NCBI RefSeq assembly: GCF_963921235.1
Contig: NC_086108.1
Coordinates: forward strand, 62,374,001 to 62,438,000
Origin: Mobula hypostoma
Taxonomy: Eukaryota
DNA: 64,000 nucleotides
Direction of reading: 5' to 3'
A program made the position numbers and the translations under genes. The notes under the pieces were generated by a model, which worked only from the letters and a program-made list of their open reading frames with translations, was not told the origin of the DNA and searched no databases. Below are positions 16,330 to 58,719 of the stretch, in pieces (the stretch's first letter is position 1; the number at the start of each line of letters is the position of its first letter).

Positions 16330-17900
16330 AGTATTTATACCCACTGCTTTGACTTAATCAGCATTCTCACAGCGTTCAAACACATCCTGACAAAAAGATT
16401 CAGCATTCACTGTATTGATAATCATTCTCACCACATTCACTCACTCAGGATCAATGCACTGAATGAGCACACGAAGTGTTCTCCAGCGTACGTCATTCAT
16501 TCATGCAGTTCCCAAGCATGTAGTCTACACTTTCAATGTGTAAAGTTAAACATACCATTCATTCCCATTGTATTCACACAATCTATTCACATATGCATTG
16601 CATTCACACACACACTCATTCTCACACAATTCACACACAGACACTCATTCTCACACAAGTCACACACACCATTTTCACACAATTCACACACACACTCATT
16701 CTCACACAATTCACACGCACTCACTCACACACACTCAATCACACACACATTTCTGCACAATTCCCACACACTCATTCTTACGCAGTATTCACACGTACTC
16801 ATTCACACTCACATTCATTCTCAAACTGTACTCACACACACATACTCATTCACACCCACACTCATTCACACACTGTATTCACACACACACTTTATTCACA
16901 GACAAGCTCATTTTCACACAATTCACACACACACTCATTTACACACTATTCACATGCACTGTATTCACATACACACACATTCCTACACACATTGTATTCA
17001 CACACACACAGTCACACACACTGTATTCATACACCCATTTACACGCTATTCACACCCATGCTCACTTGCACACTATTCACACGCACACTAATTCACATGC
17101 TCATTCACACATACCCATAATATTTACACATTCATTCAACACATACTATATTCACACACACTCATCTACCCTCTGTATTCACAGTCTCATACTGTATTGA
17201 CACACACACTCACTCACTCACACACACTAATTCACACACTATTCACACACACTCATTCACTTGCTCATTCACACACATTGTATTCACACACACATTCACA
17301 CACACAGTATTTACACACTCATTCACACACACATTTACATTGTATTCACAAACTCAGTCTCGTAATGTATTGACACACTCACTCATTTACACACTATTCT
17401 CATGCAAACTCACACACTATTCACACACACACTCATTCTCACCCTGCATTCACACACACACTCATGCACACCCTTGCTCATTCACACACAAGCTCATTTG
17501 CACATTCATTCACACACACTCATTCACATACTCATTTACACATACTGTACTCAGAGACACCCATTAACACACAATTCACATACACACTCATTCACACACA
17601 CACACTGGAATCACAATACACTCATCTACACATGCACTCATTCACAAACTGTATTCACATACACACATTCTCACACCATTCCACACAGACACTCATTCTC
17701 ACACTGTATTCACACACACTGTACTCACATATACACACGCCATCATTCAAACACACACCCATTCATGTGCTATTCACACACACTCATTCGCACAGTTTCA
17801 CACTCACACTCATTTACACTCTATTCACACACACTCATTCATACACTATACTCTCACACACACAATTTACACTCTATTCACACACACTCATTCACACACA
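16330..17900. repeat. Long CA-rich cryptic satellite / low-complexity tract (TATTCACACAC and CTCATTCACAC motifs)
   Basis: Directly visible; G-poor on the + strand; continues in degraded form at 18190-18755 and 19640-19895. Confidence 0.95.
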
Positions 17901-20001: not shown

Positions 20002-23000
20002 TCAGAACCCCGCCCCAGCCTTCCCTCCATACCCCCTGATCCCTGTAGCCACAAGGGCCATATCTAACTCCCTCTTGAATATAGCCAATGAACTGGCCTC
20101 AACTGTTTCGAATTCCACAGATTCACCACTCTCTGTGTGAAGAAGTTTTTTCCTAATCTCGGTCCTAAAAGGCTTCCCCTTTATCCTCAAACTGTGACCC
20201 CTTGTTCTGAACTTCCCCAACATCGGGAACAACCTTCCTGCATCTAGCCTGTCCAATCCCTTTAGGATTTTATACGTTTCAATCAGATCCCCCCTCAATC
20301 TTCTAAATTCCAACGAGTACAAGCCCAGTTCATCCAGTCTTTCTTCATATGAAAGTTCTGCCATCCCAGGAATCAATCTGGTGAACCTTCTTTGTACTCC
20401 CTCTATGGCAAGGATGTCTTTCCTCAGATTAGGGGACCAAAACTGCACACAATACTCCAGGTGTGGTCTCACCAAGGCCTTGTACAACTGCAGTAGTACC
20501 TCCCTGCTCCTGTACTCGAATCCTCTTGCTATAAATGCCAGCATACCATTCGCCTTTTTCACCGCCTGCTGTACCTGCATGCCCACTTTCAATGACTGGT
20601 GTATAATGACACCCAGGTCTCGTTGCACTTCCCCTTTTCCTAATCGGCCACCATTCAGATAATAATCTGCTTTCCTATTTTTGCCACCAAGGTGGATAAC
20701 TTCACATTTAATCCACATTAAATTGCATCTGCCATGAATTTGCCCACTCACCCAACCTATCCAAGTCACCCTGCATTCTCTTATCATCCTCCTCACAGCT
20801 AACACTGCCACCCAGCTTCGTGTCATCCGCAAACTTGGAGATGCTGCATTTAATTCCCTCATCCAAGTCATTAATATATATTATAAACAACTGGGGTCCC
20901 AGCACTGAGCCTTGCAGTACCCCACTAGTCACCGCCTGCCATTCTGAAAAGGTCCCGTTTATTCCCAATCTTTGCTTCCTGTCTGCTAACCAATTCTCCA
21001 TCCACATCAATACCTTACCCCCAATACCGTGTGCTTTAAGTTTGCACACTAATCTCCTGTGTGGGACCTTGTCAAAAGCCTTTTGAAAATCCAAATATAC
21101 CACATCCACTGGTTCTCCCCTATCCACTCTACTAGTTACATCCTCAAAAAATTCTATGAGATTCGTCAGACATGATTTTCCTTTCACAAATCCATGCTGA
21201 CTTTGTCCGATCATTTCACTGCTTTCCAAATGTGCTGTTATCACATCTTTGATAACTGACTCCAGCAGTTTCCCCACCACCGACGTTAGGCTAACCGGTC
21301 TATAATTCCCCGGTTTCTCTCTCCCTCCTTTTTTAAAAAGTGGGGTTACATTAGCCACCCTCCAATCCTCAGGAACTAGTCCAGAATCTAACGAGTTTTG
21401 AAAAATTATCACTAATGCATCCACTATTTCTTGGGCTACTTCCTTAAGCATTCTAGGATGCAGACCATCTGGCCCTGGGGATTTATCTGCCTTCAATCCC
21501 TTCAATTTACCTAACACCACTTCCCTACTAACATGTATTTCGCTCACTTCCTCCATCTCACTGGACCCTCTGTCCCCTACTATTTCTGGAAGATTATTTA
21601 TTGCCTCCTTAGTGAAGACAGAATCAAAGTAATTATTCAATTGGTCTGCCATGTCCTTGCTCCCCATAATCAATTCACCTGTTTCTGTGTGTAGGGGACC
21701 TACATTTGTCTTTACCAGTCTTTTCCTTTTTACATATCTATAAAAGCTTTTACAGTCAGTTTTTATGTTCCCTGCCAGTTTTCTCTCATAATCTTTTTTC
21801 CCCTTCCTAATTAAGCCCTTTGTCCTCCTCTGCTGAACTCTGAATTTCTCCCAGTCCTCAGGTGAGCCACTTTCTCTGGCTAATTTGTATGCTTCTTCTT
21901 TGGAATTGATACTATCCTTAATTTCTCTTGTCAGCCATGGGTGCACTACCTTCCCTGATTTATTCTTTTGCCAAACTGGGATGAACAATTTTTTTAGTTC
22001 ATCCATGCAACCTTTAAATGCTTGCCATTGCATATCTACCGTCAATCCTTTAAGTGTCATTTGCCAGTCTATCTTAGCTAATTCACGTCTCATACCTTCA
22101 AAGTTACCCCTCTTTAAGTTCAGAACCTTTGTTTCTGAATTAACTATGTCACTCTCCATCTTAATGAAGAATTCCACCATATTATGGTCACTCTTACCCA
22201 AGGGGCCTCTCACGACAAGATTGCTAATTAACCCTTCCTCATTGCTCAAAACCCAGTCCAGAATATCCTGCTCTCTAGTTGGTTCCTCGACATGTTGGTT
22301 CAAAAAACCATCCCGCATACATTCCAAGAAATCCTCTTCCTCAGCACCTTTACCAATTTGGTTCACCCAATCTACATGTAGATTGAAGTCACCCATTATA
22401 ACTGCTGTTCCTTTATTGCACACATTTCTAATTTCCTGTTTAATACCATCTCCGACCTCACTACTACTGTTAGGTGGCCTATACACAACTCCCACCAGCG
22501 TCTTCTGCCCCTTGGTGTTACGCAGCTCTACCCATATCGATTCCACATCTTCCCGGCTTATGTCCTTCCTTTCTATTGCGTTAATCTCATTTTTAACCAG
22601 CAACGCCACCCCACCTCCCCTTCCTTCATGTCTATCCCTCCTGAATATTGAATATCCCTGAACGTTGAGCTCCCATCCTTGGTCACCCTGGAGCCATATC
22701 TCTGTGATCCCAACTATATCATAATCATTAATAACAATCTGCACTTTCAATTCATCCACCTTATTACGAATGCTCCTTGCATTGACACACAAAGCCTTCA
22801 GGCGCTCTTTTACAACTCTCTTAGCCCTTATACAATTATGTTGAAAAGTGGCCCTTTTTAATGCTTGCCCTGGATTTGTCGGCCTGCCACTTTTACTTTT
22901 CTCCTTAGTAGTTTTTGCTTCTACCCTCACTTTACACCCCTCTGTCTCTCTGCACTGGTTCCCATCCCCCTGTTGTGAACTAACCTCCTCACGCCTAGCC

Positions 23001-23026
23001 TCTTTAATTTGATTCCCACCCCCCAA
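20002..23026 (-). pseudogene. CR1 ORF2 (APE endonuclease + reverse transcriptase), one frameshift near 20708
   Basis: 772-aa ORF with NARSIRNK, GITE.W, GDFN, SDH, NYRPVSL, DFQKAFD, GVLQGSVLGP and FADD; the C-terminus continues in the 20002-20871 ORF. Confidence 0.95.
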
Positions 23027-23031
23027 CCATT

Positions 23032-23940
23032 CTAGTTTAAAGTCACCTCAGTAGCCCTCGCTAATCTCCCTGCCAGGATATTGGTCCCCCTAGGATTCAA
23101 GTGTAACCCGTCCTTTTTGTACAGGTCACGCCTGCGCCAAAAGAGGTCCCAATGATCCAAAAACTTGAATCCCTGCCCCCTGCTCCAATCCCTCAGCCAC
23201 GCATTTATCCTCCACCTCATCACATTCCTATTCTCACTGTCGCGTGGCACAGGCAGTAATCCCGAGATTACTACCTTTGCGGTCCTTTTTCTCAACTCCC
23301 TTCCTAGCTCCCTATATTCTCCTTTCAGGACCTCATCCCTTTTCCTACCTATGTCATTGGTACCTATATGTACCATGACCTCTGGCTCCTCACCCTCCCA
23401 CTTCAGGATATCTTGGACACGATCAGAAATATCCCGGACCCTGGCACCAGGGAGGCAAACTACCATCTGGGTCTCTGGACTGCGTCCACAGAATCGCCTA
23501 TCTGACCCCCTTACTATCGAGTCCCCTATCACAACTGCCCTCCTCTTCCTTGCCCTACCCTTCTGAGCTACAGGGCCAGACTCTGTGCCGGAGGCACGGC
23601 CACTGTCGCTTCCCCCGGGTAAGCTGTCCCCCCCAACAGCACTCAAACAGGAGTACCTATTGTTAAGGGGCACAGCCACCAGGGTACTCCCTATTACCTG
23701 ACTCTTCCCCTTCCCCCTCCTAACCGTGACCTACTTGTCTGCCTCCCGTGGCCCCGGCGTGACCACCTGCCTGCAACTCCTCTCTATCAACTCCTCACTC
23801 TCCCTGACCAGACGAAGGTCATCGAGCTGCAGCTCCAGTTCCGTAACGCGGTCCCTTAGGAGCTGCATCTCGATGCACTTGGCGCAGATGTAGACGTCCG
23901 GGAGGCTTCGAGACTCCAGGGCCTCCCACATCCGACATCG
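23032..23940 (-). pseudogene. CR1 ORF1 (ZnF/leucine zipper + SGNH/GDSL esterase), one in-frame stop at 23731-23733
   Basis: CRMWE..YICAKC..LELQLDDL then VIGDSIVR, HIGTND and DGLHLN; the two ORF pieces are in the same frame. Confidence 0.93.
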
Positions 23941-28900: not shown

Positions 28901-29030
28901 TAATTTTTTTATATCCTTGGGGTATGCAGTGAAGAAGGGCACCCATTGCCTGCAGGTATTAACCAAGCTCCAAAGTCAAAGAAATTAGAATAACTAAAAG
29001 TTGCAGTTTAACATATTTTTAAATGCTGTA

Positions 29031-29719
29031 CCTTACCACCAAGCTGAAGGTCTACTGTGCAGTGGTCCTTACCACCCTCCTTTACGCCAGCGAGACCTGG
29101 ACTGTCTGCAGCAGACACGCCAAACAGCTCAACCATTTTCACCTGAGCTGTCTCCGCAGACTCCTCCACATCAGGTGGCAGGACAAAGTCCCCGACACGG
29201 AAATCCTAGAACGAGCTGGGCTCTGCAGCGTCTACACCCTCCTGCTGAAAGCCCAAGCCAGGTGGGCTGGACATGTGGTCAGAATGCCAGATAGCCGATT
29301 GCCTAAGCAGCTGCTGTACGGAGAACTGTGTCAGGGCAAGCGCTCAGTCGGGGGGCAGAAGAAACGTTACAAAGACTGCCTGAAAGCGTCCCTCAAAGGC
29401 CTGGGTGTCGACATCAACACGTGGGAGACGCTTGCCCTCGACCGTCCAGCTTGGCGCAGCAAGATCACCACAGGAGCCCGTGCAGCTGAAGTCAGGCGCA
29501 TCATCGAGGCGCAACGAAAGCGTGCTGTGCGCAAGGCCCGAGCAGCATCCACTGCCACGACAGCACCCACCCACTTGTGTCCCACATGTGGGCGAGCCTT
29601 CAGGGCCCAGATTGGCCTCATCAGTCACCTCCGGACCCACAGCCGCCAATCTCCCATTTGACTTTGAAGCCATGGTCATCTTCGACTACGAAGGACGAAC
29701 AACAAGCAACAACAACAAC
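29031..29719 (+). mobile_element. Young 5'-truncated RTE-clade LINE with C-terminal C2H2 zinc finger
   Basis: Uninterrupted ORF LLYASETW..RWAGHVVRMPDSRLPKQLLYGEL..CPTCGRAFRAQIGLISHLRTH; (CAA)n tail; TSD AAATGCTGTA at 29021-29030 and 29720-29729. Confidence 0.93.
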
Positions 29720-43195: not shown

Positions 43196-46100
43196 GTCCA
43201 GTGAAGGAGTGGAGCTTTGAGGCTTTAGCTCGAGCAGTTTAGACAGTTGGATTGTGCAATCAAGTTAATCAAGATTTGAATAGCTCAGACTCAGCAGAAA
43301 GTAGCTGAACAGGCAATCGAGGTCAGGTGACCAAGCAGTTTGATTGGGCAATCGAAAATTGAAAAGCTCAAACAAATAAAAAGAGAGGTAGCTCAAGCAG
43401 AGCAGCCAGTGAAGGAGTGGAGCTTTGAGGCTTTGGCTTGAGAGGCTTCGGCGAGAAGAGGCGGAGACGAGCTTTCTCCAAGAGTGCTAATGCCGGGGAA
43501 GTTATTTAATGAATTTAATTAACTTAGGAGTTGGTAATGGAGGCAGTAGATAGGGCAGTCCAGTGCTCCGATTGTCGGATGTGGGAAGTCAGGGACGGCG
43601 GAGTTGTCTCTGAGAACAGCAGCACCTGTTAAAACGAGTTCGGAAACTGGAGCTGGAGCTGGATGAACTTCGGATCATTCGGGAGGCAGAGGCAGTAATA
43701 GATCAGAGTTTCAGGGAGGCAGTCACCCCTAAAAGTCAGGAGACAGGTAACTGAGTGACTGTCAGGAGAGGGAAGGGGAATGGACAGAAAGAGCAGAGCA
43801 TCCCTGTGGCTGTTCCCATGAACAATAAGTATACTGTTTTGGATACTGTTGGTGGGGATGATCTACCAGGGATAAGTTGTAATGGTCGTGTCTCTGGCAC
43901 CGAGACTGGACCCTCAGCTCAGAAAGGAAGGAGGGAAAAGAGGGGAGCAGTAGTGATAGGGGATTCGATAGTTAGGGGGACAGATAAGAGGTTCTGTGGG
44001 AGAGATCAAGAATCCCAGATGATCTGTTGTCTCCCTGGTGCCAGGGTCTGCGATATCTCGGATCGAGTTCTCGGTATTCTCAGGAGAGAGAGTGAGCAGA
44101 CAGATATTGTGGTCCACGTGGGGACCAATGACATAGATAGGAGTAGGGATGAGGTCCTGAAGAAGGAATATAGGGAGTTAGGAAAGAAGTTAAAAAGCAG
44201 GACCTCAAGAGTGGTAATCTCGGAATTGCTGCCTGTGCCACGAGACAGAGAGGGTAGGAACAGGAAGTTATGGCAGATGAATGTGTGGCTGAAGAGTTGG
44301 TGCAGGAGGCAGGGGTTCAGATTTCTGGATCATTGGGATCTCTTCTGGGGAAGGTCTGACCTGTACAAAAAGGATGGGCTGCACCTGAACTGGAAAGGGA
44401 CCAATATCCTGGCGGGCAGGTTTGCTAGAGCTGTTGGGGAGGGTTTGAACTTGTTTGGCAGGGGGGTGGGAATCAGAATGTGAGTGCAGAGATTAGGGTA
44501 GAAGGACAAGGGCATGATGCTATGTGTTCTGAGTTGGTGAGGAAGGACAGGCAAGGGACAAAGCATAAATGTAGCCAGTTAGAGGGGTTGAAATGTGTCC
44601 ATTTCAGTGCTAGGAGTATTAGGAATAAAGGGGATGAACTTAGACCATGGATCAGTACGTGGAACTACGATGTTGTGGCCATTACTGAAACTTGGCTGGA
44701 GGAAGGGCAGGATTGGCTGATGCAGGTACCGGGGTTTAGGTGTTTTAAGAGGAATAGGATGGGAGGTAGAAAAGGGGTGGGGGGGTGTAGCATTACTGGT
44801 CAGGGATATTATCACGGCTAGAGAAAGGGAGGACGCTGCAGAGGGAGTGTCCACTGAGTCAGTGTGGGTGGAAGTCAGAAATAGGAAGGGATCAATCACT
44901 GTGCTGGGAGAAGTCTATAGGCCCCCAAATAGCCCATGGGAGACTGAGGAGCAGATAAGCAGGCAGATTTTAGAATGGTGCAGGAAATACAGGGTCGTAG
45001 TTATGGGTGATTTCAACTTCTCTCATATTGACTGGCACCTCCTGACTGCAAGGGGGATAGATGGGCTGAATTTGTCAGGTGTGTTCAAGAAGGATTCCTG
45101 ACACAGTATGTGGACCGGCCGACGAGAGGAGAGGCCATACTGGATCTAGTTCTGGGTAATGAACCTGGTCAGGTGGCAGACCTCTTGGTGGGGGAGCATT
45201 TTGGTGAGATTGACCACAACTCCCTTAGCTTCAGCAAAGCTATGGAAAAGGATAAAAACAGACAAAATGGGAAAGTGCTTAACTGGGGAAGGGCTAACTA
45301 TGAAGGGACGAGGCAGGAACTAGCGAGAGTAAATTGGAAACAGATGTTCAAGGGTGAAAGCACAGAAGTAATGTGGAGGAAGTTTAGGGGCCACTTGTGC
45401 TGGGTTCAGTACAGGTTTGTCCCACTGAGACAAGGCAAAAATGGTAGGAAAAGGGAACCCTGGCTGACGAAACACGTGAGGCAACTCGTCAAGAGGAAGA
45501 AGGAAGCATATGTTAGATGCAGGAAGCAGGAGGGGCTCATGAGAAATACAGGGTAGCCAGGAAGGAGCTTAAGAAAGGACTTAGGAGAGCTCGAAGGGGC
45601 CATGAGCAGGCCTTGGCATGTAGGATTAAGGATGATCCCAAGGCGTTCTGTGCGTATGTGAACAGAAGGATGACAAGAATGAAGGTGGGGCCGCTAAAGG
45701 ATAAAGAAGGCAACATGTGCGTGGAGGCAGAGGAGGTTGGGGAGGTCCTAAATGAATAATTTGCTTCCGTATTCACAAGTGAAAAGGACATTGATCAGGG
45801 TGATGTAGAAATTGAACAGGTCTGTATGCTGGACAATGTGGAGATTAAGGAAGAAGAAATGTTGAGTCTTCTTAAAAACATCAAGATTGCTAAGTCCCCA
45901 GGGCCGGACGTGATATACCCCAGGTTGCTGTGGGAAGTGAGAGAAGAGATCGCTGGTGCTGGAGGATTGGAGAATAGCAAATGTAGTTCCCTTGTTTAAA
46001 AAAGGTAATAGGGAAAATCCTAGGAACTATAGACCGGTGAGTCTTGCGTCGGTGGTCTGCAATCTATTGGAAAGGACTCTTAAGGATAGGATCTACGAGC

Positions 46101-47417
46101 ATTTGGAGAAGTACAGTCTACTCAAGGATAGTCAACATGGCTTTGTGAAGGGAAGGTCATGCCTCATGAGCCTAATTGAGTTTTTTGAAGAGATAACAAA
46201 AGAAATTGACGAGGATAGGGCGGTAGATGTGGTCTACATGGATTTTAGCAAGGCATTTGACAAGGTCCCCCACGAGAGACTCATCCAGAAAGTCATGAGG
46301 CATGGGATCAGTGGAACCTTGGCTGCTTGGATAAAAAATTGGCTTACAGGAAGAAAGCAGAGGGTAGTAGTGGAAGGAAAGTATTCTGCCTGGAGGTCGG
46401 TGACTAGTGGAGTGCCGCAAGGATCGGTCCTGGGACCGCTGCTCTTTGTGATTTTTATAAATGACCTGGATGAAGAGGCGGAAGGATGGGTGAGTAAGTT
46501 TGCGGATGACATGAAGATTGGAGGAGTTGTGGATGGAGCTGTAGGTTGTCGAAGAGGATATAGACAGGATGCAGAGTTGGGCAGAAAAGTGGCAGATGGA
46601 GTTCAATCCGGATAAGTGTGAGGTGATGCATTTTGGAAGGACAAACCAGAAGGCTGAGTACAGGGTTAATGGTCAGTTACCTAAGAGTGTGGATGAACAG
46701 AGGGACCTTGTGGTTCAAATCCATAATCCCTCAAGGTCACTGCACAGGTTGATAGGATAGTTAAGAAGGCCTATGGGATGCTGAGTTTCATTAATAGGGG
46801 GATTGAGTTCAAGAGTAGAGAGGTCATGTTGCAACTCTACAAATCTCTGGTGAGACCACACTTAGGGTATTGTGTTCAGTTCTGGTCACTTCATTATAGG
46901 AAGGATATGGAAGCTATGGAGAGGATGCAGAGGAGGTTTACCAGGATGTTGCCTGGATTGGAAAACAAGTCTTCTGAGGCAAGGTTAGCAGAGCTGGGAC
47001 TTTTCTCTTTGGACTGTAGAAGGATGAGAGGGGACTTGATAGAGGTCTACAAGATTATGAGAGGCACGATAGGGTGGCTAGCCAGTACCTGTTTCCCAGG
47101 GCACGAATAGAAAACATCAGAGGGCATATGTACAAAGTTAAGAGAGGGAAGTTCAGGGGAGACATCAGGGGTAAGTTTTTTACACAGAGGGTTGTGAGTG
47201 CTTGGAATGACTTGTCAGGGATGGTGGTGGAGGCTAAAACATTAGGGATATTTAAGATCCTCTTGGACAGGCACATGGATGAAAGAAAAATAGAGGGTTA
47301 CGGGGTAGTGTGAGTTTAGTACTTTTTTTGAGGAATATGTTGGTTGACACAACGTCAAGGGCCGAAGGGCCTGTACTGTGCTGTAGTATTCTAGTGTCTA
47401 GTGTCTAGTGTTTAGTG
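43196..47417 (+). mobile_element. Full-length-like CR1 LINE (5' UTR, ORF1 from ATG 43537, ORF2, tail), multiply disabled
   Basis: MEAVDRAVQCSDCRMWEV; esterase GDSIVR/GTND/DGLHLN; APE and RT motifs; (CTAGTGT)n tail at 47390-47417. Confidence 0.96.
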
Positions 47418-51531: not shown

Positions 51532-51852
51532 TAAATATAAGAAACATAATTGAATCAGTGAAAGACTGCGCTCAGTAGGACGGGCAAACAACCAATGTGC
51601 AAAAGACAACAAATTGTACAAATCCAAAAGCAAAAATAATAATAATAATAAATAAGCAATAAATATTGAGAGCATCAGATGAAGAGTCCTTGAAAGTGAG
51701 CCCAGTGGTTGTGGGAACAGTTCAGTAATAGGGTGAATGAGGATGTGAAGTTACCCACTCTGGTTCAAGAGCTGAGTTCAATACTTTCCTGTTTTCCCCT
51801 TGTCCCTCATAAAAATGTTAACTTCCATCAGTTGCTCCCCTTTCTCCAAGTT

Positions 51853-52052
51853 CAAGGGGCACAGACTTGAGTTTTTCCTCTTCACCTGTCCCCTATACAA
51901 GGGGCACAGATGTGATTTGAACCCCTTCTCCTTTCCCCCGTACAAGGAGCACAGACTTGAGTTGTTCCTCTTCACCTTTCCCCCTGTACAAGGGGCACAG
52001 ACGTGAACTGATCCCCTTCACCTTTCCCCTGTACAAAGGGCACAGACTTGAG
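51853..52052. repeat. 45-bp minisatellite, about 4.5 copies, alternating A/B units
   Basis: CAAGGGGCACAGA-like starts at 51853, 51898, 51943, 51989 and 52034. Confidence 0.9.
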
Positions 52053-53042
52053 TGTACCTAATGAAGTACTCGACAAACCTTGTTCTTCTAGGCCTTCATT
52101 TCCTCTACAATCCTTGGATTACACCTCAAGCGAGGATGTTAAACTCCTGCTCCCTGACCTCCTCAACCCCAAACAAGAGAAAAGACACATGATACCTCAT
52201 GCTCACACTACTGGGTGAGTTTAAATGTCACCAGAAGGGCAAAGTTAGTAACAGCACATTGATTTTATTTCCCACTGACAGCAAATGGCAGAAATTTTGA
52301 TCAAACGACTTGGAAGCCTCAGCGTTTATGTATATGAGGGCACCACGAATTAAAAACATGTGAAATTCATTCTGGGACCAATTTTATCCACTTGCATCAG
52401 ATTTTTGGCTCTTTTGCCAATAGGTTCATAGAGTACAGCCCAAAAACTGTTAAAATTAATGTCATGAGATCACCCCAAGTTTGCTGAGGCCAATCTTCCT
52501 GATTTCAAGAGACTTTATTAAAAAGATAGCTATTAGTGCCATTCTCCATTTTCAGAGTTCCCGCCACTTCATTTGGCTGAGTAAGACACTGCTTCAGGTA
52601 CACCAAACAGCTGTATCATCAACTGATACTACTTCCTTAACTCCATGTCAGGCTTTATTGGGTGAGGCCCAAGTTGATGGAAACAAGATGGTGACTGACT
52701 TCCTGCACTCAGAGTTGAGGCAACTCCCCAAATGCTGCATGGCTGAAAACTTTCAAACATGCTCTCCTGCTGCAGCTGCAAGTTTGGGAAACAACAGACA
52801 GAAAGTACTGTATATGCAAAGGTATCTCAGGAAGTTCAAAGGTAAATGGCCAGTTAATTTCTTTCTGTGCTATTGATCACAAGATGGATATTGGCACGAG
52901 GAGAATTTGTGCTGTTCACTCCTGAGCCCATCTCTCTTTGCTTAGCTATCTGGCTTGACTGTAGAATGCTAGCAATAATGTTTAAGCCAGATGTTTGATT
53001 TGGAGTAGCAGAGTGTATTGCTGAGATATCTCCTTCCTGTTT

Positions 53043-54078: not shown

Positions 54079-54456
54079 TGGATTGCATATTGAGTTGAAA
54101 AATGATCCTTGCTTTGTTCCTGATCAGAACATAAGAATGTAAGAAATAGGAGCAGGAGTAGGCCATTCGGCCCATCAAACCAGCCCCACCTTTCAATAAG
54201 ATCATGGCTACTACTATTACGTCGACTGAGGCCTAGGGGGCCGGCGTCAGGCACGATGACGGACTCTCCACTTCTGCCTCTCCCTCATCAGTGTGTTCAG
54301 TTGCTTGGGCTCCCCTGTGATGACTAGGCTGGCAGGTAGCTCGGAGTGGCGTAGACAGTGCCCCGTTGTTGCAGTCTTCTCGCCTCGATTTTAGTGGTGA
54401 GCATCGGTATGTTGTTACAGAACTCAACGTTTGTCATGTGCTGTTGCCAAATCACG

Positions 54457-55815
54457 TCAAGAGCCATCCGGAGCATTCGTGTATAGCAACCATCTAGAGA
54501 CTTTCGCATCATCTTGATTGAGTGTCCACGTCTCGCATCCGTACGTGAGAATGGACTCTATGACTGCTATGAAAATCCTCTTTTTAAGCCTTCTGGTCAG
54601 GTTTGACTTCCAGATTTCCTTCATGTCGTTCATAGTCCTCCACGCCAGTGCCTTCCTTATCTTTATGTCCTTCTCTGAACTCATCATTCTTGACCCGAGG
54701 TACTTGTAGTCAAAGACTTTCTTAATGGTATCATTCTCTACGGTCTTGAGAGTACCTTTGTCGCAGTTAAATGCCATGTACTCTGTCTTTTTAGCATTTA
54801 GGTGAAGTCCAACTTCATTGCACTCAATTTCCACTTTTGTCAGCAGCTGCTGTGCTTCCTCCATCTGGTCAGAGAGCAGGACTATGTCATCTACAAAATC
54901 GAGATCAGTGAGCGTAACTGGTCTGACCCTTTTGGTTCGTCCTGGTTTTATGGTAAAACCAAGCTTGTCATGATCTTTGGTAGCTTGACGCAGAGCATAA
55001 TCAAGGGCGATTATAAAGATGTAGGGTTCCAGAGTGTCTCCTTGCAGCACACCAGCTAGGAGCTCAAACACTGCTGTTTCTCCATCTGGTGATACAACTT
55101 TCGCCATGGGTTTGGTATAGCTGGACTCTATTGCTCTTAGTAGATGGTCTGGCACTCCATAAGCTTTCAGGATCTTCAGCATTTTACCTCGGTGAATGGA
55201 GTCAAAAGCTTTGCGAAAATCGATGAAAGTAAGCACAGCTGGTAGGTTGTTCTTCTTGACTTCCTCGATGATCCTACGGAGAGCAAGTATTTGCATTACA
55301 GTTGTGTGCTTCTGCCGAAAACCATTCTGATTGAATCTTAGCTTAGGGTCATTGGCGGTGCGAATCCTGTTCAAGATCATCCGATTGTATAACCTTGCTA
55401 AGATGCAGGTCAAGCTGATACCGCGGTAGTTATCTGTCTTTGTGAGGGATCCAGACTTGGGTACTGGGATAATGTTTGAGAATGACCACTGTTCTGGTTT
55501 GTTGCCTTTCATCAGTGCCATATTACATATGTCCAGCAAGATGTCGTCCAGGTCGCAGTTCTTCAGGACATCTGGTGGTATCCCATCTGGTCCAGCGTTC
55601 CTGCCCTGTTTGAGTGCATATTTGGCCTTCTTTGGTTCCTCAGTGGTGAATGGGCTGTCATTGATGTCGACTTGCGTTAGTATCGTGGGTATGTCCTCTT
55701 CTTCTTCCGTGATCATTGGAGGGCTTCCCAGCAGGTTCTTAAAGTGGGTAAACCATATCAGGACACGGTCCTCTGCTGTTTTACCACTTATTTGACCTGA
55801 TGGGGACTTCTTCAT
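54457..55815 (-). pseudogene. RTE-clade reverse transcriptase (452-aa open segment)
   Basis: AGPDGIP, NYRGISL, QNGFR, FIDFRKAFDSI, GVLQGDTL, DLDFVDD, YKYLGS and YGCETW. Confidence 0.93.
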
Positions 55816-56700
55816 TCTACTGATCTCATTGACTAGGCGCCATGCTTCTCCACGCTGTATGTCTTCATTAGCAGCTTCTATCTCTCTAATCCTCTCAGTT
55901 AGTTCCTCTACCTTCAGTCAGTCATAGGTGGCAAAGAGGTTCTTCTTTGCTGTTTTGAACTTGTTTCTTAGCTCTTCTGTTTCGCTCCTTCTAAGTTCGG
56001 CATGACAAGCACTGACCACACCTCTTGCTGCGACGACGTCAGGATGTTTCGAGATCCAACTCTTCTTGATTCGCTTCACAGTAGGCAAAGTCTTTGTTGC
56101 ATCTGTGTGTGCGTCTATGAGCCGTTGTTAGTGGTTGGTGGCAGTCTTTTCCTTCCCCCCCTTCCAGTGGGCCGGAGCGATTTCTCACCTCCACTGTGTA
56201 CTGGACATGAAGAATAGGTTGTGAGGATAATGCCTTCCAGTCTATCTTCTCCTTGGGACCTGTGGCTTTGGGTTGCCACAGGCTCAAGCTCAGCCTGGCT
56301 TTCCCACACGAGCCCATCCGCCACAGCACCTGATACCTCATCACTCAAAACTCTGCAGCCTTACCTCTCCCAGCCACACATATACATCCACCAGCCCAAC
56401 ACTCAAACCTAATCCTAACGTCCAGGGGGAAGACACCCCCACAAACCCTAGGCACATCCCAATTAACCCTGGCCACACCCCTACAAACCCTAGGCACACC
56501 CCGATTAAACCTGGGCACACCCCCACAAACCCGATCACCTTTGTCAGGAGGGGCCAGATCCAAGAAAGGCAAGTGTTGGACCTGGTAAATGAAGACGTCA
56601 TGGGTCAGATCAAAGTGGCAGGGTTGCGTGAAACTGAACCTCAAGTGACAAGATCAAAAAAGCACAAGAGGGCTGATTCGCCCACTGCCTGAATACTGTC

Positions 56701-56738
56701 AACCTACCCCTAACCCCTAACCCTAACCCTAAACCTAA
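56701..56738. repeat. Telomere-like (CCCTAA/TTAGGG)n degenerate array
   Basis: AACCTACCCCTAACCCCTAACCCTAACCCTAAACCTAA. Confidence 0.9.
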
Positions 56739-56851
56739 TGCGTGGGCCAGATCAAAGTGGCAGGGTTGCATGAAACTGAATCTCAAGTGACGAGATAAAA
56801 AAAACACAAGAGGGCTGATTTGCCCACCGCCCGAATACTCTCGTGGCTCCC

Positions 56852-57668
56852 ATAAGATCATGGCTGATCTGTCCGTAAACTCAGCTCCATCTACCTGCCT
56901 TTTCCCCATAACCCTTAATTCCCCTACTATTATAAATCTATCTAACTGTATCTTAAATATATTTAGTGAAGAAACCTAAACTGCTTCCCTGGGCAAAGAA
57001 TTCCACAGATCCACCACTCTCTGGGAAAACAGTTTCTCCCCATCTCCGTCCTAAATCTTCTCCCCTGAATTTTGAGCAATGTCCCCTAGTTCTTGCCTCA
57101 CCTACCAATGGAAACAACTTTCCTACTTCTATCTTATCTATCCCTTTCAAAATTCTGTATGTTTCTATAAGATCCCCTCTCATTCTTCTGAATTCCAGTG
57201 AGTATAGTCCCAGGCCACTCAATCTCTCCTCATAAGTTAACCCTTTCATCTCTGGAATCAACCTGGTGAACCTCCTCTGCACTGCTTCCAAAGCCAGTAT
57301 ATCCTTCCTCAAGTATGGAGACCAGAACTGCAACCAGTACTCCAGGTGCAGTCTCACCAGTACCTTGTATAGTTCCAGCAATATCTCCCTGCTCTTGAAT
57401 TCAATACCTCTAGCAATGAAGGCCAATATTCCGCTTGCCTTCTTAATAACCTGTTGCACTTGCAAGACAACATTTTGCAATTCATGCACAAGCACTCCCA
57501 GTCCCTCTGCACAACAGCATGCTGCAATCTTTCACCACTTAAATAATAATCTGCTCTTCTATTATTCCTTCCAAAGTGGATGATCTCGCATTTACCGACA
57601 TTATATTCCACCTGCCGGACTTTGGTCCACTCACTTAACCTATCTATATCCCTCTGCAGAACATCCAC
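56852..57668 (-). mobile_element. CR1 LINE 3' fragment (its tail is at 54127-54209, displaced by the RTE insertion)
   Basis: LAFIARGIEFKSREILLELYKVLVRLHLEYWLQFWSPYLRKDILALEAVQRRFTRLIP. Confidence 0.92.
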
Positions 57669-57682
57669 TGATTGGAGAAGTT

Positions 57683-58719
57683 TAATGCATGTTGAAATGC
57701 TTATTCTCTGGTCTTACTTCAATGGCTTCCTTCACCAGGCCGTCCCAAAAGCCATTGGTGTGACACAGTAGTTTTGTGCCATCATAGTCAATCGTGTGAT
57801 CATTGCGAATGCAGCGTTCTGCTACTGCTGATTTCTTTGGGTAATCCAAATGGATACGCCTCCTAAGCTCCTTGATCTGGGTTGCTACTGTGCGCTCCGT
57901 CTGGCTGATATTCACTGGCCTGCATTCACAGGGAATTTTGTAAACACCAGCTGTCCTGAGTCCCAGATCATCTTTGGCCTGCATAAGCTGTGATTTGAGC
58001 TTCCTTATGGGGTTGTGGATGGTATTTATCCGTTATTTCTACAGGACCCTAGTGATCCTTTCAAAAACCGTGGAAATAAGGGAAGACAGGTGATGCGTTC
58101 TTCCTCGTTGTTAGGTTTCCTGGTTTTTCCATTGACCCTTTTAAGGGCCTGATTGATTTCCTTCACCTTGTAGCCATTCTGTAGGAATGCCATGTGTAAT
58201 TGTCTTATTTCCTTATGGAGAATTTCTAAATCCGAAATTGTTTTCAGATGGTTAATCAAAGTAGAATGAACTACTCTATGTTGGGAAGCGTGATGGTGGC
58301 TGTTATTGTTGAGATACAAGTCTGTGTGACTGAAGTTCCATGCCCAAGTCTACCGTCTAGAAATACTGTGCTACGCCAAAGACCTTTAGGAGCGCCTGGT
58401 GAAGGAAGCCTTTGAAATAAGATGAGAGAATAAGAATTTCAACAAAGCTGAAGGTCTTGCTCTAAGTAAGAACTGGAATACTATTTTAAACAAGGTCAGA
58501 TAGCAGAAAACTGATTGGTTGAGAACTAACCAATCAGGAGGGATGCACAACAGAGTTGAGTATGTATACCACCAGACTAGACATGCCTAGGTATCATCCC
58601 TGATGAAGATGGTGGAGTTTGTCATTGAAATGTTGGTTAAAATTGACATCTGGACTCACCTGGAAGCCCGAGAAGAATTTATGCATCATATACATTGGGA
58701 AAGCATGAAATCTTTTTTC
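57683..58719. mobile_element. Penelope-like (Poseidon-type) element: inverted RT-end/GIY-YIG segment (minus) plus pLTR (+), 12-bp TSD
   Basis: Minus: YLNNNSHH..FLQNGY and GVYKIPCEC..SQTER..SAVAE..LVKEAIE..FN. Plus 58362-58719 repeats the GIY-YIG end and continues into the 3' UTR. TSD ATTGGAGAAGTT at 57671-57682 and 58720-58731. Confidence 0.88.
58596..58638 (+). ncRNA. Hammerhead ribozyme motif of the second Penelope family
   Basis: CC-CUGAUGA-A-GAUGGUGG(AGU)UUGUCAUU-GAAAU-GUU-GG. Confidence 0.6.

What the first reader, a model, noticed from the sequence alone, without database searches (positions are those of the whole stretch)
56300..56865. RTE insertion carries a non-coding 5' module with tandem units and telomere-like repeats inside its TSD
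Seen: RTE coding similarity ends near 56300 with no endonuclease domain, but the 14-bp TSD lies at 56852-56865. The intervening 550 bp holds two 97-bp direct repeats (56601-56697 and 56743-56839) separated by degenerate TTAGGG repeats (56701-56738; sense strand GGGTTAGGGTTAGGGGTTAGGGG, G-quadruplex-competent), and a 21-bp repeat with alternating units (56434-56532). Inference: either a chimeric retrotranscript formed by template switching onto a subtelomeric or Helentron-like RNA, or an endonuclease-less RTE subfamily with a repeat-built promoter. Either would disperse interstitial telomere-like sequence by retrotransposition.
Basis: partly seen in the sequence, partly recalled or inferred. 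Interest (0 to 1): 0.7.

Follow-up and report, generated by a model that had tools for sequence, protein, structure and literature searches.

The report
Truncated RTE fused to foreign repeat
A dead, front-shortened jumping gene (an RTE-type LINE) carries, inside one target-site duplication, a 558-base piece of another repeat with a short telomere-like run, likely picked up when the copying enzyme switched templates, which is a known kind of accident rather than a new endonuclease-free family.

Summary
The anatomy is real. A 14-bp duplication (54196-54209, 56852-56865) encloses a 5'-truncated RTE-group LINE plus a 558-bp module holding 21/42-bp repeats, two 100-bp units and a short TTAGGG-like tract. 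LINE similarity begins at codon 56299, four codons past the endonuclease's last catalytic motif; the closest relatives found carry an endonuclease. In runs of two related organisms, summed contig depth falls 37-45-fold along the LINE toward its 5' end, then rises again over the module: 0.8-5x in organism A, 9-64x in B. So the module behaves as a separately amplified repeat, not as an endonuclease-less subfamily's promoter. Module matches stop at 56294, which suggests a 6-nt overlap with the LINE. Most likely (0.6) this is a one-off chimeric retrocopy made by template switching or twin priming onto an abundant repeat RNA, as described for U6/RTE and fungal MINE chimeras. The main rival (0.2) is the LINE's own 5' region left after internal deletion of the endonuclease. 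The parent repeat is unidentified. Helentron ends and ribozyme patterns were not found, subtelomeric position could not be tested, and a weak antisense coding signal remains (p about 0.05).

The parts
54130..54209 (-). 3' end of the host CR1/L2-type LINE (left piece of the element that was interrupted; start approximate)
   Evidence: collinear with other copies in the window when joined to 56866-57000
54196..54209 (.). target-site duplication, left copy (14 bp)
   Evidence: exact, only two places in window
54210..54300 (-). RTE 3' end: end of the ORF, short 3' UTR and short (TAG)n-type tail whose repeat runs on into the first two TSD letters
   Evidence: sequence; tblastn hits end at 54268-54322
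54301..56299 (-). 5'-truncated RTE-group ORF: linker plus RT and C-terminus, no endonuclease; frameshifts near 56154 and 54515, stops at 56128-56130 and 55918-55920
   Evidence: RVT_1 E=2e-33; up to 63% identity to full-length EN-RT proteins; frames; start codon-exact at 56299; both stops absent from most depth in relatives
56294..56299 (.). inferred 6-nt overlap (microhomology) between LINE and module
   Evidence: LINE frame starts at 56299; module contigs match down to 56293/4 in three runs; inferred, no DNA consensus available
56294..56851 (.). 5' module: piece of a separately amplified, unidentified repeat family
   Evidence: depth rise over the module and run-on into non-RTE letters
56303..56689 (+). 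129-codon open frame antisense to the LINE (Pro/Thr/His-rich 7-aa repeats); coding status weak
   Evidence: 9 of 17 repeat differences synonymous, 5.7 expected, p=0.053; frame length p=0.076; no specific homolog
56433..56532 (.). 21-bp minisatellite with alternating units (42-bp period)
56551..56600 (.). third, diverged copy of the start of the 100-bp unit
   Evidence: local alignment to both copies; family D12
56601..56700 (.). 100-bp unit, copy 1
   Evidence: 90% identical to copy 2
56703..56738 (-). degenerate TTAGGG tract; G4 pattern at 56707-56729
   Evidence: G4 folding not tested
56743..56842 (.). 100-bp unit, copy 2
56843..56851 (.). 9 nt at the 5' junction that are not part of the 100-bp unit (filler or parent sequence, unknown)
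   Evidence: sequence
56852..56865 (.). target-site duplication, right copy (14 bp)
   Evidence: host-LINE joints land at 56852
56866..57620 (-). host CR1/L2-type LINE, right piece (3' UTR and end of ORF2; end approximate)
   Evidence: ORF 56953-57531; collinear empty site; family label from own knowledge

Best explanation
This is a dead, 5'-truncated RTE-group LINE copy whose 558-bp front end was likely copied from the RNA of a different, abundant repeat during the same insertion event. Shown: one 14-bp TSD encloses both parts; the LINE stops at codon 56299; the module is a multi-copy sequence whose abundance relative to the LINE differs more than tenfold between two related organisms. Inferred: an endonuclease-bearing master nicked the host LINE tail and reverse-transcribed about 2.1 kb from the 3' tail. 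It stalled just past the endonuclease domain and was joined through about 6 shared bases (56294-56299) to a copy of the second RNA. This happened either by a forward template switch onto the G-rich strand, or by twin priming on the C-rich strand from the second nick. The telomere-like tract is then a passenger of the parent repeat. The copy has no endonuclease, carries stops and frameshifts, and would not be autonomous.
For: TSD and collinear empty site. Codon-exact start of LINE similarity. Summed contig depth along the LINE falls 37-fold (X1) and 45-fold (X2) toward 56139-56237, then rises over the module to 0.8-5.4x (X1), 8.7-63.5x (X2) and 0.7-8.7x (X10) of that bin. In X2 the left part of the module (434k-535k) exceeds every LINE bin (max 374k) and the LINE tail bin (326k). 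X1 record 7 fits 56294-56459 and runs on for 269 letters unlike the stretch. An X2 loose end matches 56304-56314 in register at 11 of 11 letters and 1 of 9 further left (compared by eye). The module has no TSD or terminal repeats of its own. Chimeras of RTE/RTEX with U6, and inverted twin-primed chimeras inside a TSD, are published (PMC4476161). So are foreign 5' parts on truncated LINEs in MINE (PMC2104539).
Against: The tool warns that summed contig depth is no copy number, and internal tandem repeats inflate it. In organism A the module is only 0.01-0.07 of the tail depth, which a genuine 5' region or a bipartite derivative would also give. The 269-letter run-on of record 7 could be further 5' UTR or endonuclease sequence of a full-length LINE. 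Depth in X2 and X10 falls toward 56851, as a 5'-truncated element of the LINE's own orientation would (partly a masked repeat). The insert begins with GGG directly at the TSD. Only 24 of 39,462 pieces and 15 of 212 joints were shown, none from the window's own organism (best share of words 0.36). The parent repeat was not identified. The 6-nt overlap is inferred, and an internal deletion would leave one too.
Confidence: 0.6

Rival explanations
1. The module is the authentic 5' region of the full-length RTE. This copy lost the rest of the UTR and the endonuclease by an internal deletion or intramolecular RT jump at the 6-nt overlap, and the excess depth comes from a bipartite non-autonomous derivative (5' part plus short tail) that amplified in organism B.
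For: RTE is one of four clades reported to make bipartite non-autonomous LINEs (PMC5786205 section 23). Module and LINE are both covered in X1, X2 and X10 and both uncovered in X21. Module depth in A is of the same order as the LINE 5' bins and well below the tail. Depth falls toward 56851. The insert starts with GGG at the TSD.
Against: In X2 the tail bin 54258-54356 (326k) shows no excess over ORF bins (323k, 374k), while the module reaches 535k. In X1 the tail has an excess (258k against 101-127k) but the module is only 3-18k. So module and tail do not co-vary. No module-to-tail joint among the 15 of 212 shown. No HDV-like or hammerhead pattern and no Rfam hit. A tail under about 50 nt would hide in a bin dominated by the host LINE and is not excluded.
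Confidence: 0.2
2. The module arrived separately: a later insertion or DNA-templated patch (repair, gene conversion) at the 5' end of an already truncated RTE, or DNA filler captured while the 5' junction was resolved.
For: The first 9 nt of the insert (56843-56851) resemble 56296-56305 with a 2-nt gap, which could be a decayed duplication. The module is abundant in relatives.
Against: No exact repeat longer than 5 bp and no inverted repeat longer than 6 bp joins the two module boundaries. The host TSD abuts the module intact. A later insertion would have had to hit within about 10 bases of the 5' end of a 2.1-kb target. Module contigs themselves cover 56294-56305.
Confidence: 0.1
3. An endonuclease-less RTE subfamily uses the repeat module as its promoter and spreads telomere-like, G4-forming sequence.
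For: The break falls neatly after the endonuclease's last motif. 5' end switching is described for plant RTEs (bioRxiv 2022.11.04.512097).
Against: The best distance-to-end values at 56332 (39) and 56341 (48) both point to a stop at 56293/4, so the best-covering module contigs do not continue into the LINE. No listed piece bridges the junction. The closest homologs carry the endonuclease. LINE depth falls smoothly with no plateau up to 56299. A small subfamily private to the window's organism is not excluded.
Confidence: 0.07
4. Assembly artefact joining two repeats.
For: The insert is made of two multi-copy sequences, and no run of the window's own organism could be laid.
Against: An exact 14-bp TSD with a collinear empty site flanks the composite, which a mis-join would not create.
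Confidence: 0.03

Closest known systems
LINE 5' chimeras: U6/L1, U6/RTEX-2 (Anolis), inverted U5/L1 twin-primed chimeras (PMC4476161; passages and section 6 read)
   Same: Foreign sequence joined to a 5'-truncated LINE inside one TSD; RTE-clade LINEs are reported to do this.
   Different: The 5' part here is not an snRNA (no Rfam hit) but a 558-bp piece of an unidentified repeat with minisatellites and a TTAGGG-like tract; its transcribed strand is unknown.
MINE (WEIRD-MGL) chimeras of Magnaporthe grisea (PMC2104539; passages read)
   Same: A long 5' module of unknown function on a 5'-truncated LINE, with 10-20 bp direct repeats.
   Different: WEIRD was found only fused to MGL, in 31 chimeras. 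Here the module appears far more abundant than the adjoining LINE in one relative, and recurrence of the fusion is not shown.
Bipartite non-autonomous RTE elements (Bov-A, RTESINE, WALLSI3; PMC5786205, passages and section 23 read)
   Same: 5' non-coding part plus RTE 3' part moving as one unit.
   Different: This insert keeps 2 kb of ORF, and the module is not shown to be RTE-derived; module and tail depth do not co-vary.
5' UTR switching of plant RTEs (bioRxiv 10.1101/2022.11.04.512097; abstract and section 12 read)
   Same: A non-homologous 5' end on an RTE body, with template switching proposed.
   Different: There the ORF is kept whole and variants amplify; here the endonuclease is lost and the copy is dead.
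Helentron/HINE (DINE-1) elements (PMC4067079; passages read)
   Same: Internal tandem repeats and a microsatellite-like tract.
   Different: No 12-15 bp subTIRs, no TT flanks, only a 4-bp hairpin stem; the module sits inside a 14-bp TSD.

Membership tests
RTE-group non-LTR retrotransposon | RT domain related to single-ORF APE-endonuclease + RT proteins | tested here: met
   RVT_1 E=2e-33; 581 proteins at E<=1e-50 among 7999 candidates, best 63%; P0001 has Exo_endo_phos + RVT_1
RTE-group non-LTR retrotransposon | Placement in RTE versus RTE-X by tree with named reference elements | not testable with these tools
   No Repbase/Dfam references held; the labels RTE and RTE-X are recalled from motifs and come from no call
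RTE-group non-LTR retrotransposon | Short tandem-repeat 3' tail and TSD (TPRT marks) | tested here: met
   (TAG)n-type tail; 14-bp TSD
LINE 5' chimera (template switch / twin priming) | Both parts inside one TSD | tested here: met
LINE 5' chimera (template switch / twin priming) | 3' part is a 5'-truncated LINE | tested here: met
   truncation gradient
LINE 5' chimera (template switch / twin priming) | 5' part comes from an independent source, not the LINE's own 5' end | tested here: inconclusive
   Depth excess and run-on favour it, but no full-length consensus of this family was available
LINE 5' chimera (template switch / twin priming) | Donor is a transcribed RNA of known strand | not testable with these tools
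   No stranded RNA run was listed
Helentron/HINE | 12-15 bp subterminal inverted repeats | tested here: not met
   Longest end-to-end inverted repeat 6 bp; the piece may lack the parent's ends
Helentron/HINE | T-rich (TT) flanks without target duplication | tested here: not met
   Flanks are the LINE body and the 14-bp TSD
RTE 5' UTR with HDV-like ribozyme | Nested double pseudoknot at the 5' end | tested here: not met
   0 hits of a loose, recalled descriptor on either strand, while 19 of 60 sense shuffles hit; no Rfam match; folding z -1.08 to +0.31
Subtelomeric (TERRA-like) repeat | Copies cluster next to chromosome ends and are transcribed toward the telomere | not testable with these tools
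   No genome held
Endonuclease-less RTE subfamily | Module-RT junction recurs in independent insertions | tested here: inconclusive
   No bridging piece among 24 of 39,462 shown, and best module contigs stop at 56293/4, in two related organisms; own genome not searchable

The most novel reading that the evidence does not exclude
The module is the head of an undescribed RTE-mobilised retroposon, or a subtelomeric TERRA-like transcript repeatedly captured by RTE reverse transcriptase. It expanded more than tenfold in one lineage and seeds short G-quadruplex-forming TTAGGG tracts across chromosome arms by retrotransposition, an RNA route to interstitial telomeric sequence that needs no telomerase.
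Probability: 0.15. Interest if true: 0.6.

Novelty: new member of a known kind. Interest (0 to 1): 0.3.

Why it matters
As a single dead chimera it matters little. It adds one more case of a non-L1 LINE capturing a foreign template, here a repeat rather than an snRNA or mRNA. The by-product is of more use: an unidentified repeat family with minisatellites and a TTAGGG-like tract whose abundance differs strongly between two related organisms. If that family proved to be retro-mobilised or subtelomeric, it would give a testable retrotransposition route to interstitial telomeric sequences.

Tried and rejected
Whole-genome search: no genome held. Rfam at E<=10: two weak snoRNA matches far below gathering score. 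RNA folding of the 100-bp units: no better than shuffles. HDV-like and hammerhead patterns: none. Module 22-mer in metagenome contigs: 0. RT protein in metagenome contigs: 160 pattern matches, none confirmed. Viral contigs: two 17-mer matches with no further similarity, and 0 for a 20-mer, so no support for a viral origin. No protein from the same LINE family above 65% identity in the rows listed, so the junction could not be fixed at DNA level. Module + strand frame: 40 hits at E<=0.001, none at 1e-10, best stretches centred on the Pro-rich repeat; Atlas best score 0.79; none for residues 76-129. A first codon test gave p=0.005 but fell to p=0.053 with a null that keeps the type of base change; the RTE ORF itself gave 8 of 22 synonymous, so this test has little power. 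No RNA holder listed; X10 is only guessed to be RNA and is not used as evidence of expression. X21 (about 6 in 100 of the run read, 10 reads laid, all on the left host flank) shows neither LINE nor module, which is weak evidence of absence. A bacterial promoter scan is irrelevant to this eukaryote. Earlier-finding look-ups by sequence found nothing, even for a stretch holding the common host LINE, so the blanks are uninformative. Literature: no paper held all of TERRA, template switch, retrotransposition, telomeric repeat, chimeric. Searches listed nothing on this repeat or on RTE in rays (listings only). No supplementary files were read; repeat libraries in supplements or Repbase/Dfam could already hold the module.

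Full report
Observation. All described features are present. The 14-mer ATAAGATCATGGCT occurs only at 54196 and 56852, with no extension either way. Removing the insert restores a sequence collinear with other copies of a CR1/L2-type LINE tail in the window, and contigs of 2 of 4 laid runs show the collapsed form. The insert is therefore 54210-56851 (2,642 bp), on the minus strand, ending in a short (TAG)n-type tail. The repeats are as reported: two 100-nt units 90% alike, a 21/42-bp array and a 36-bp CCTAAC tract, and a G4 pattern at 56707-56729. There is also a diverged third start of the 100-bp unit at 56551-56600.

The LINE part. The RT is related to single-ORF endonuclease + RT proteins of about 1,000 aa, best 63% identical. 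Named hits come from lancelet, echinoderms and coral and from brittle star and teleosts. P0001 carries both domains. I call it RTE-group from recalled motifs; RTE versus RTE-X was not tested. Of 120 homologs, 114 have the endonuclease's SDH motif. In the seven columns from S onward the window residue matches 0 of 114. At the next column, Ala codon 56299, it matches 84 of 114, and at the following one Lys or Arg stands in 82 of 114. The coding remnant thus starts at 56299. The copy has two frameshifts and two stops; both stops are absent from most depth in relatives, and three contigs of X10 differ from it at 7 of 206, 7 of 195 and 7 of 180 letters.

Evidence from other organisms. No genome was held. 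Twenty runs of eight coded organisms hold part of the insert, none more than 0.36 of the words, so the window's own organism seems not to be among them. I laid 4 of the 24 listed runs. Summed contig depth, which the tool warns is no copy number, falls along the LINE from 3' to 5' by 37-fold (X1), 45-fold (X2) and 21-fold (X10): an ordinary truncation gradient. Over the module it rises again, to 0.8-5.4, 8.7-63.5 and 0.7-8.7 times the last pure LINE bin. In X2 the left part of the module is deeper than any LINE bin and than the tail. In X1 the tail shows an excess but the module does not follow it. X2 also shows variant 21-bp units and a go-back joint at 56373->56342, signs of tandem change within the module family. 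X21 (organism I, 10 reads laid) covers neither LINE nor module.

The junction. X1 record 7 fits 56294-56459 with its letters 1-169 and then runs on for 269 letters unlike the stretch; I read the orientation from the clipping of records 6, 15 and 16. The distance-to-end values at 56332 (39 in three runs) and 56341 (48 in two) also point to 56293/4. An X2 loose end matches 56304-56314 at 11 of 11 letters and 1 of 9 further left (compared by eye). With the LINE frame reaching 56299, this suggests a 6-nt overlap at 56294-56299; this is inference, as no DNA consensus was at hand. No listed piece bridges the junction, but only 24 of 39,462 pieces and 15 of 212 joints were shown.

What the module is not. 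It has no Rfam match, no unusual fold, no HDV-like or hammerhead pattern, and no TSD or subterminal inverted repeats of its own (Helentron features from PMC4067079, passages). No viral or metagenome match was found. Telomere-like hexamers are concentrated in the 36-bp tract and not clearly enriched overall (120 of 2000 shuffles reach the count). The + strand has a 129-132-codon open frame in which 9 of 17 differences between repeat units are synonymous (5.7 expected, p=0.053; frame length p=0.076). It has no specific homolog. A coding ancestry of the parent is a lead only. If true, the 'TTAGGG' tract could be the antisense of Pro-Asn codons, and the piece would have been captured in reverse.

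Mechanism. Best reading (0.6): during target-primed reverse transcription of an endonuclease-bearing RTE RNA, synthesis stopped after about 2.1 kb and was joined through a few shared bases to a copy of a second, abundant repeat RNA. A forward template switch would use the G-rich strand; twin priming from the second nick would use the C-rich strand. Both are published for LINE chimeras inside one TSD, including U6 with RTEX-2 in Anolis (PMC4476161; passages and section 6), and MINE in Magnaporthe is a close structural analogue (PMC2104539; passages). Unchecked earlier notes on this genome describe it as a devil ray and report several RTE 5' chimeras and twin-primed copies. They raise my prior but are not evidence.

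Rivals. The module may be the LINE's real 5' region after internal deletion, with a bipartite derivative explaining the excess (0.2; PMC5786205 section 23). For it: co-occurrence of both parts, low module-to-tail ratio in A (0.01-0.07), depth falling toward 56851, and a run-on in record 7 that could be endonuclease sequence. Against it: module and tail do not co-vary, though a tail under about 50 nt would be hidden. A later or DNA-templated addition (0.1) lacks its own marks. An endonuclease-less subfamily (0.07) lacks any recurring junction in the relatives; plant RTEs do switch 5' ends but keep the ORF (bioRxiv 2022.11.04.512097; abstract and section 12). An assembly artefact (0.03) would not give the TSD.

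Novelty. This is a new member of a known kind. A search for all of TERRA, template switch, retrotransposition, telomeric repeat and chimeric found no paper, and six other searches listed nothing on this repeat (listings only). Of bioRxiv 2025.02.02.635956 I saw the listing and two passages. Repeat libraries were not available and may already hold the family. Interest 0.3: a clean but ordinary chimera, with an unidentified, lineage-variable, TTAGGG-bearing parent repeat as the open lead.

Noticed in passing
window 57682-58444: Penelope-like remnant: two minus-strand frames with GIY-YIG-like and RT C-terminal motifs (recognised from memory; no Pfam hit at E<=0.01 for the first), with 84-nt inverted arms at 57690-57773 and 58361-58444, 82% complementary.
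   Followed up: partly
window 51836-52053: 45-bp minisatellite (4.4 copies, 91-bp higher period); two minus-strand frames read as 15-aa Gly/Lys/Glu repeats interrupted by stops and shifts; origin unknown.
   Followed up: partly
window 54258-54356 in runs X1 and X10: The RTE tail bin is 2.5 times deeper than the next bin in X1 and 1.3 times in X10, but in X2 no deeper than the ORF bins; this may mark a short non-autonomous element or very short copies sharing this tail in organism A.
   Followed up: no
window 29023-29661 (+): C-terminal part of a second, different RTE-type ORF ending in a C2H2 zinc finger.
   Followed up: no
window 20002-23730 (-) and 43755-46615 (+): Long CR1/L2-type LINE copies with an esterase-like ORF1 (label recalled); the first keeps a 779-aa open ORF2 stretch.
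   Followed up: no
window 16600-17900: 1.3-kb degenerate CA-rich array with nested periods of 12-80 bp.
   Followed up: no
module 56337-56633 in run X2: Very high depth in organism B with variant minisatellite units and a tandem go-back joint: a strongly expanded, unidentified repeat worth characterising on its own.
   Followed up: partly
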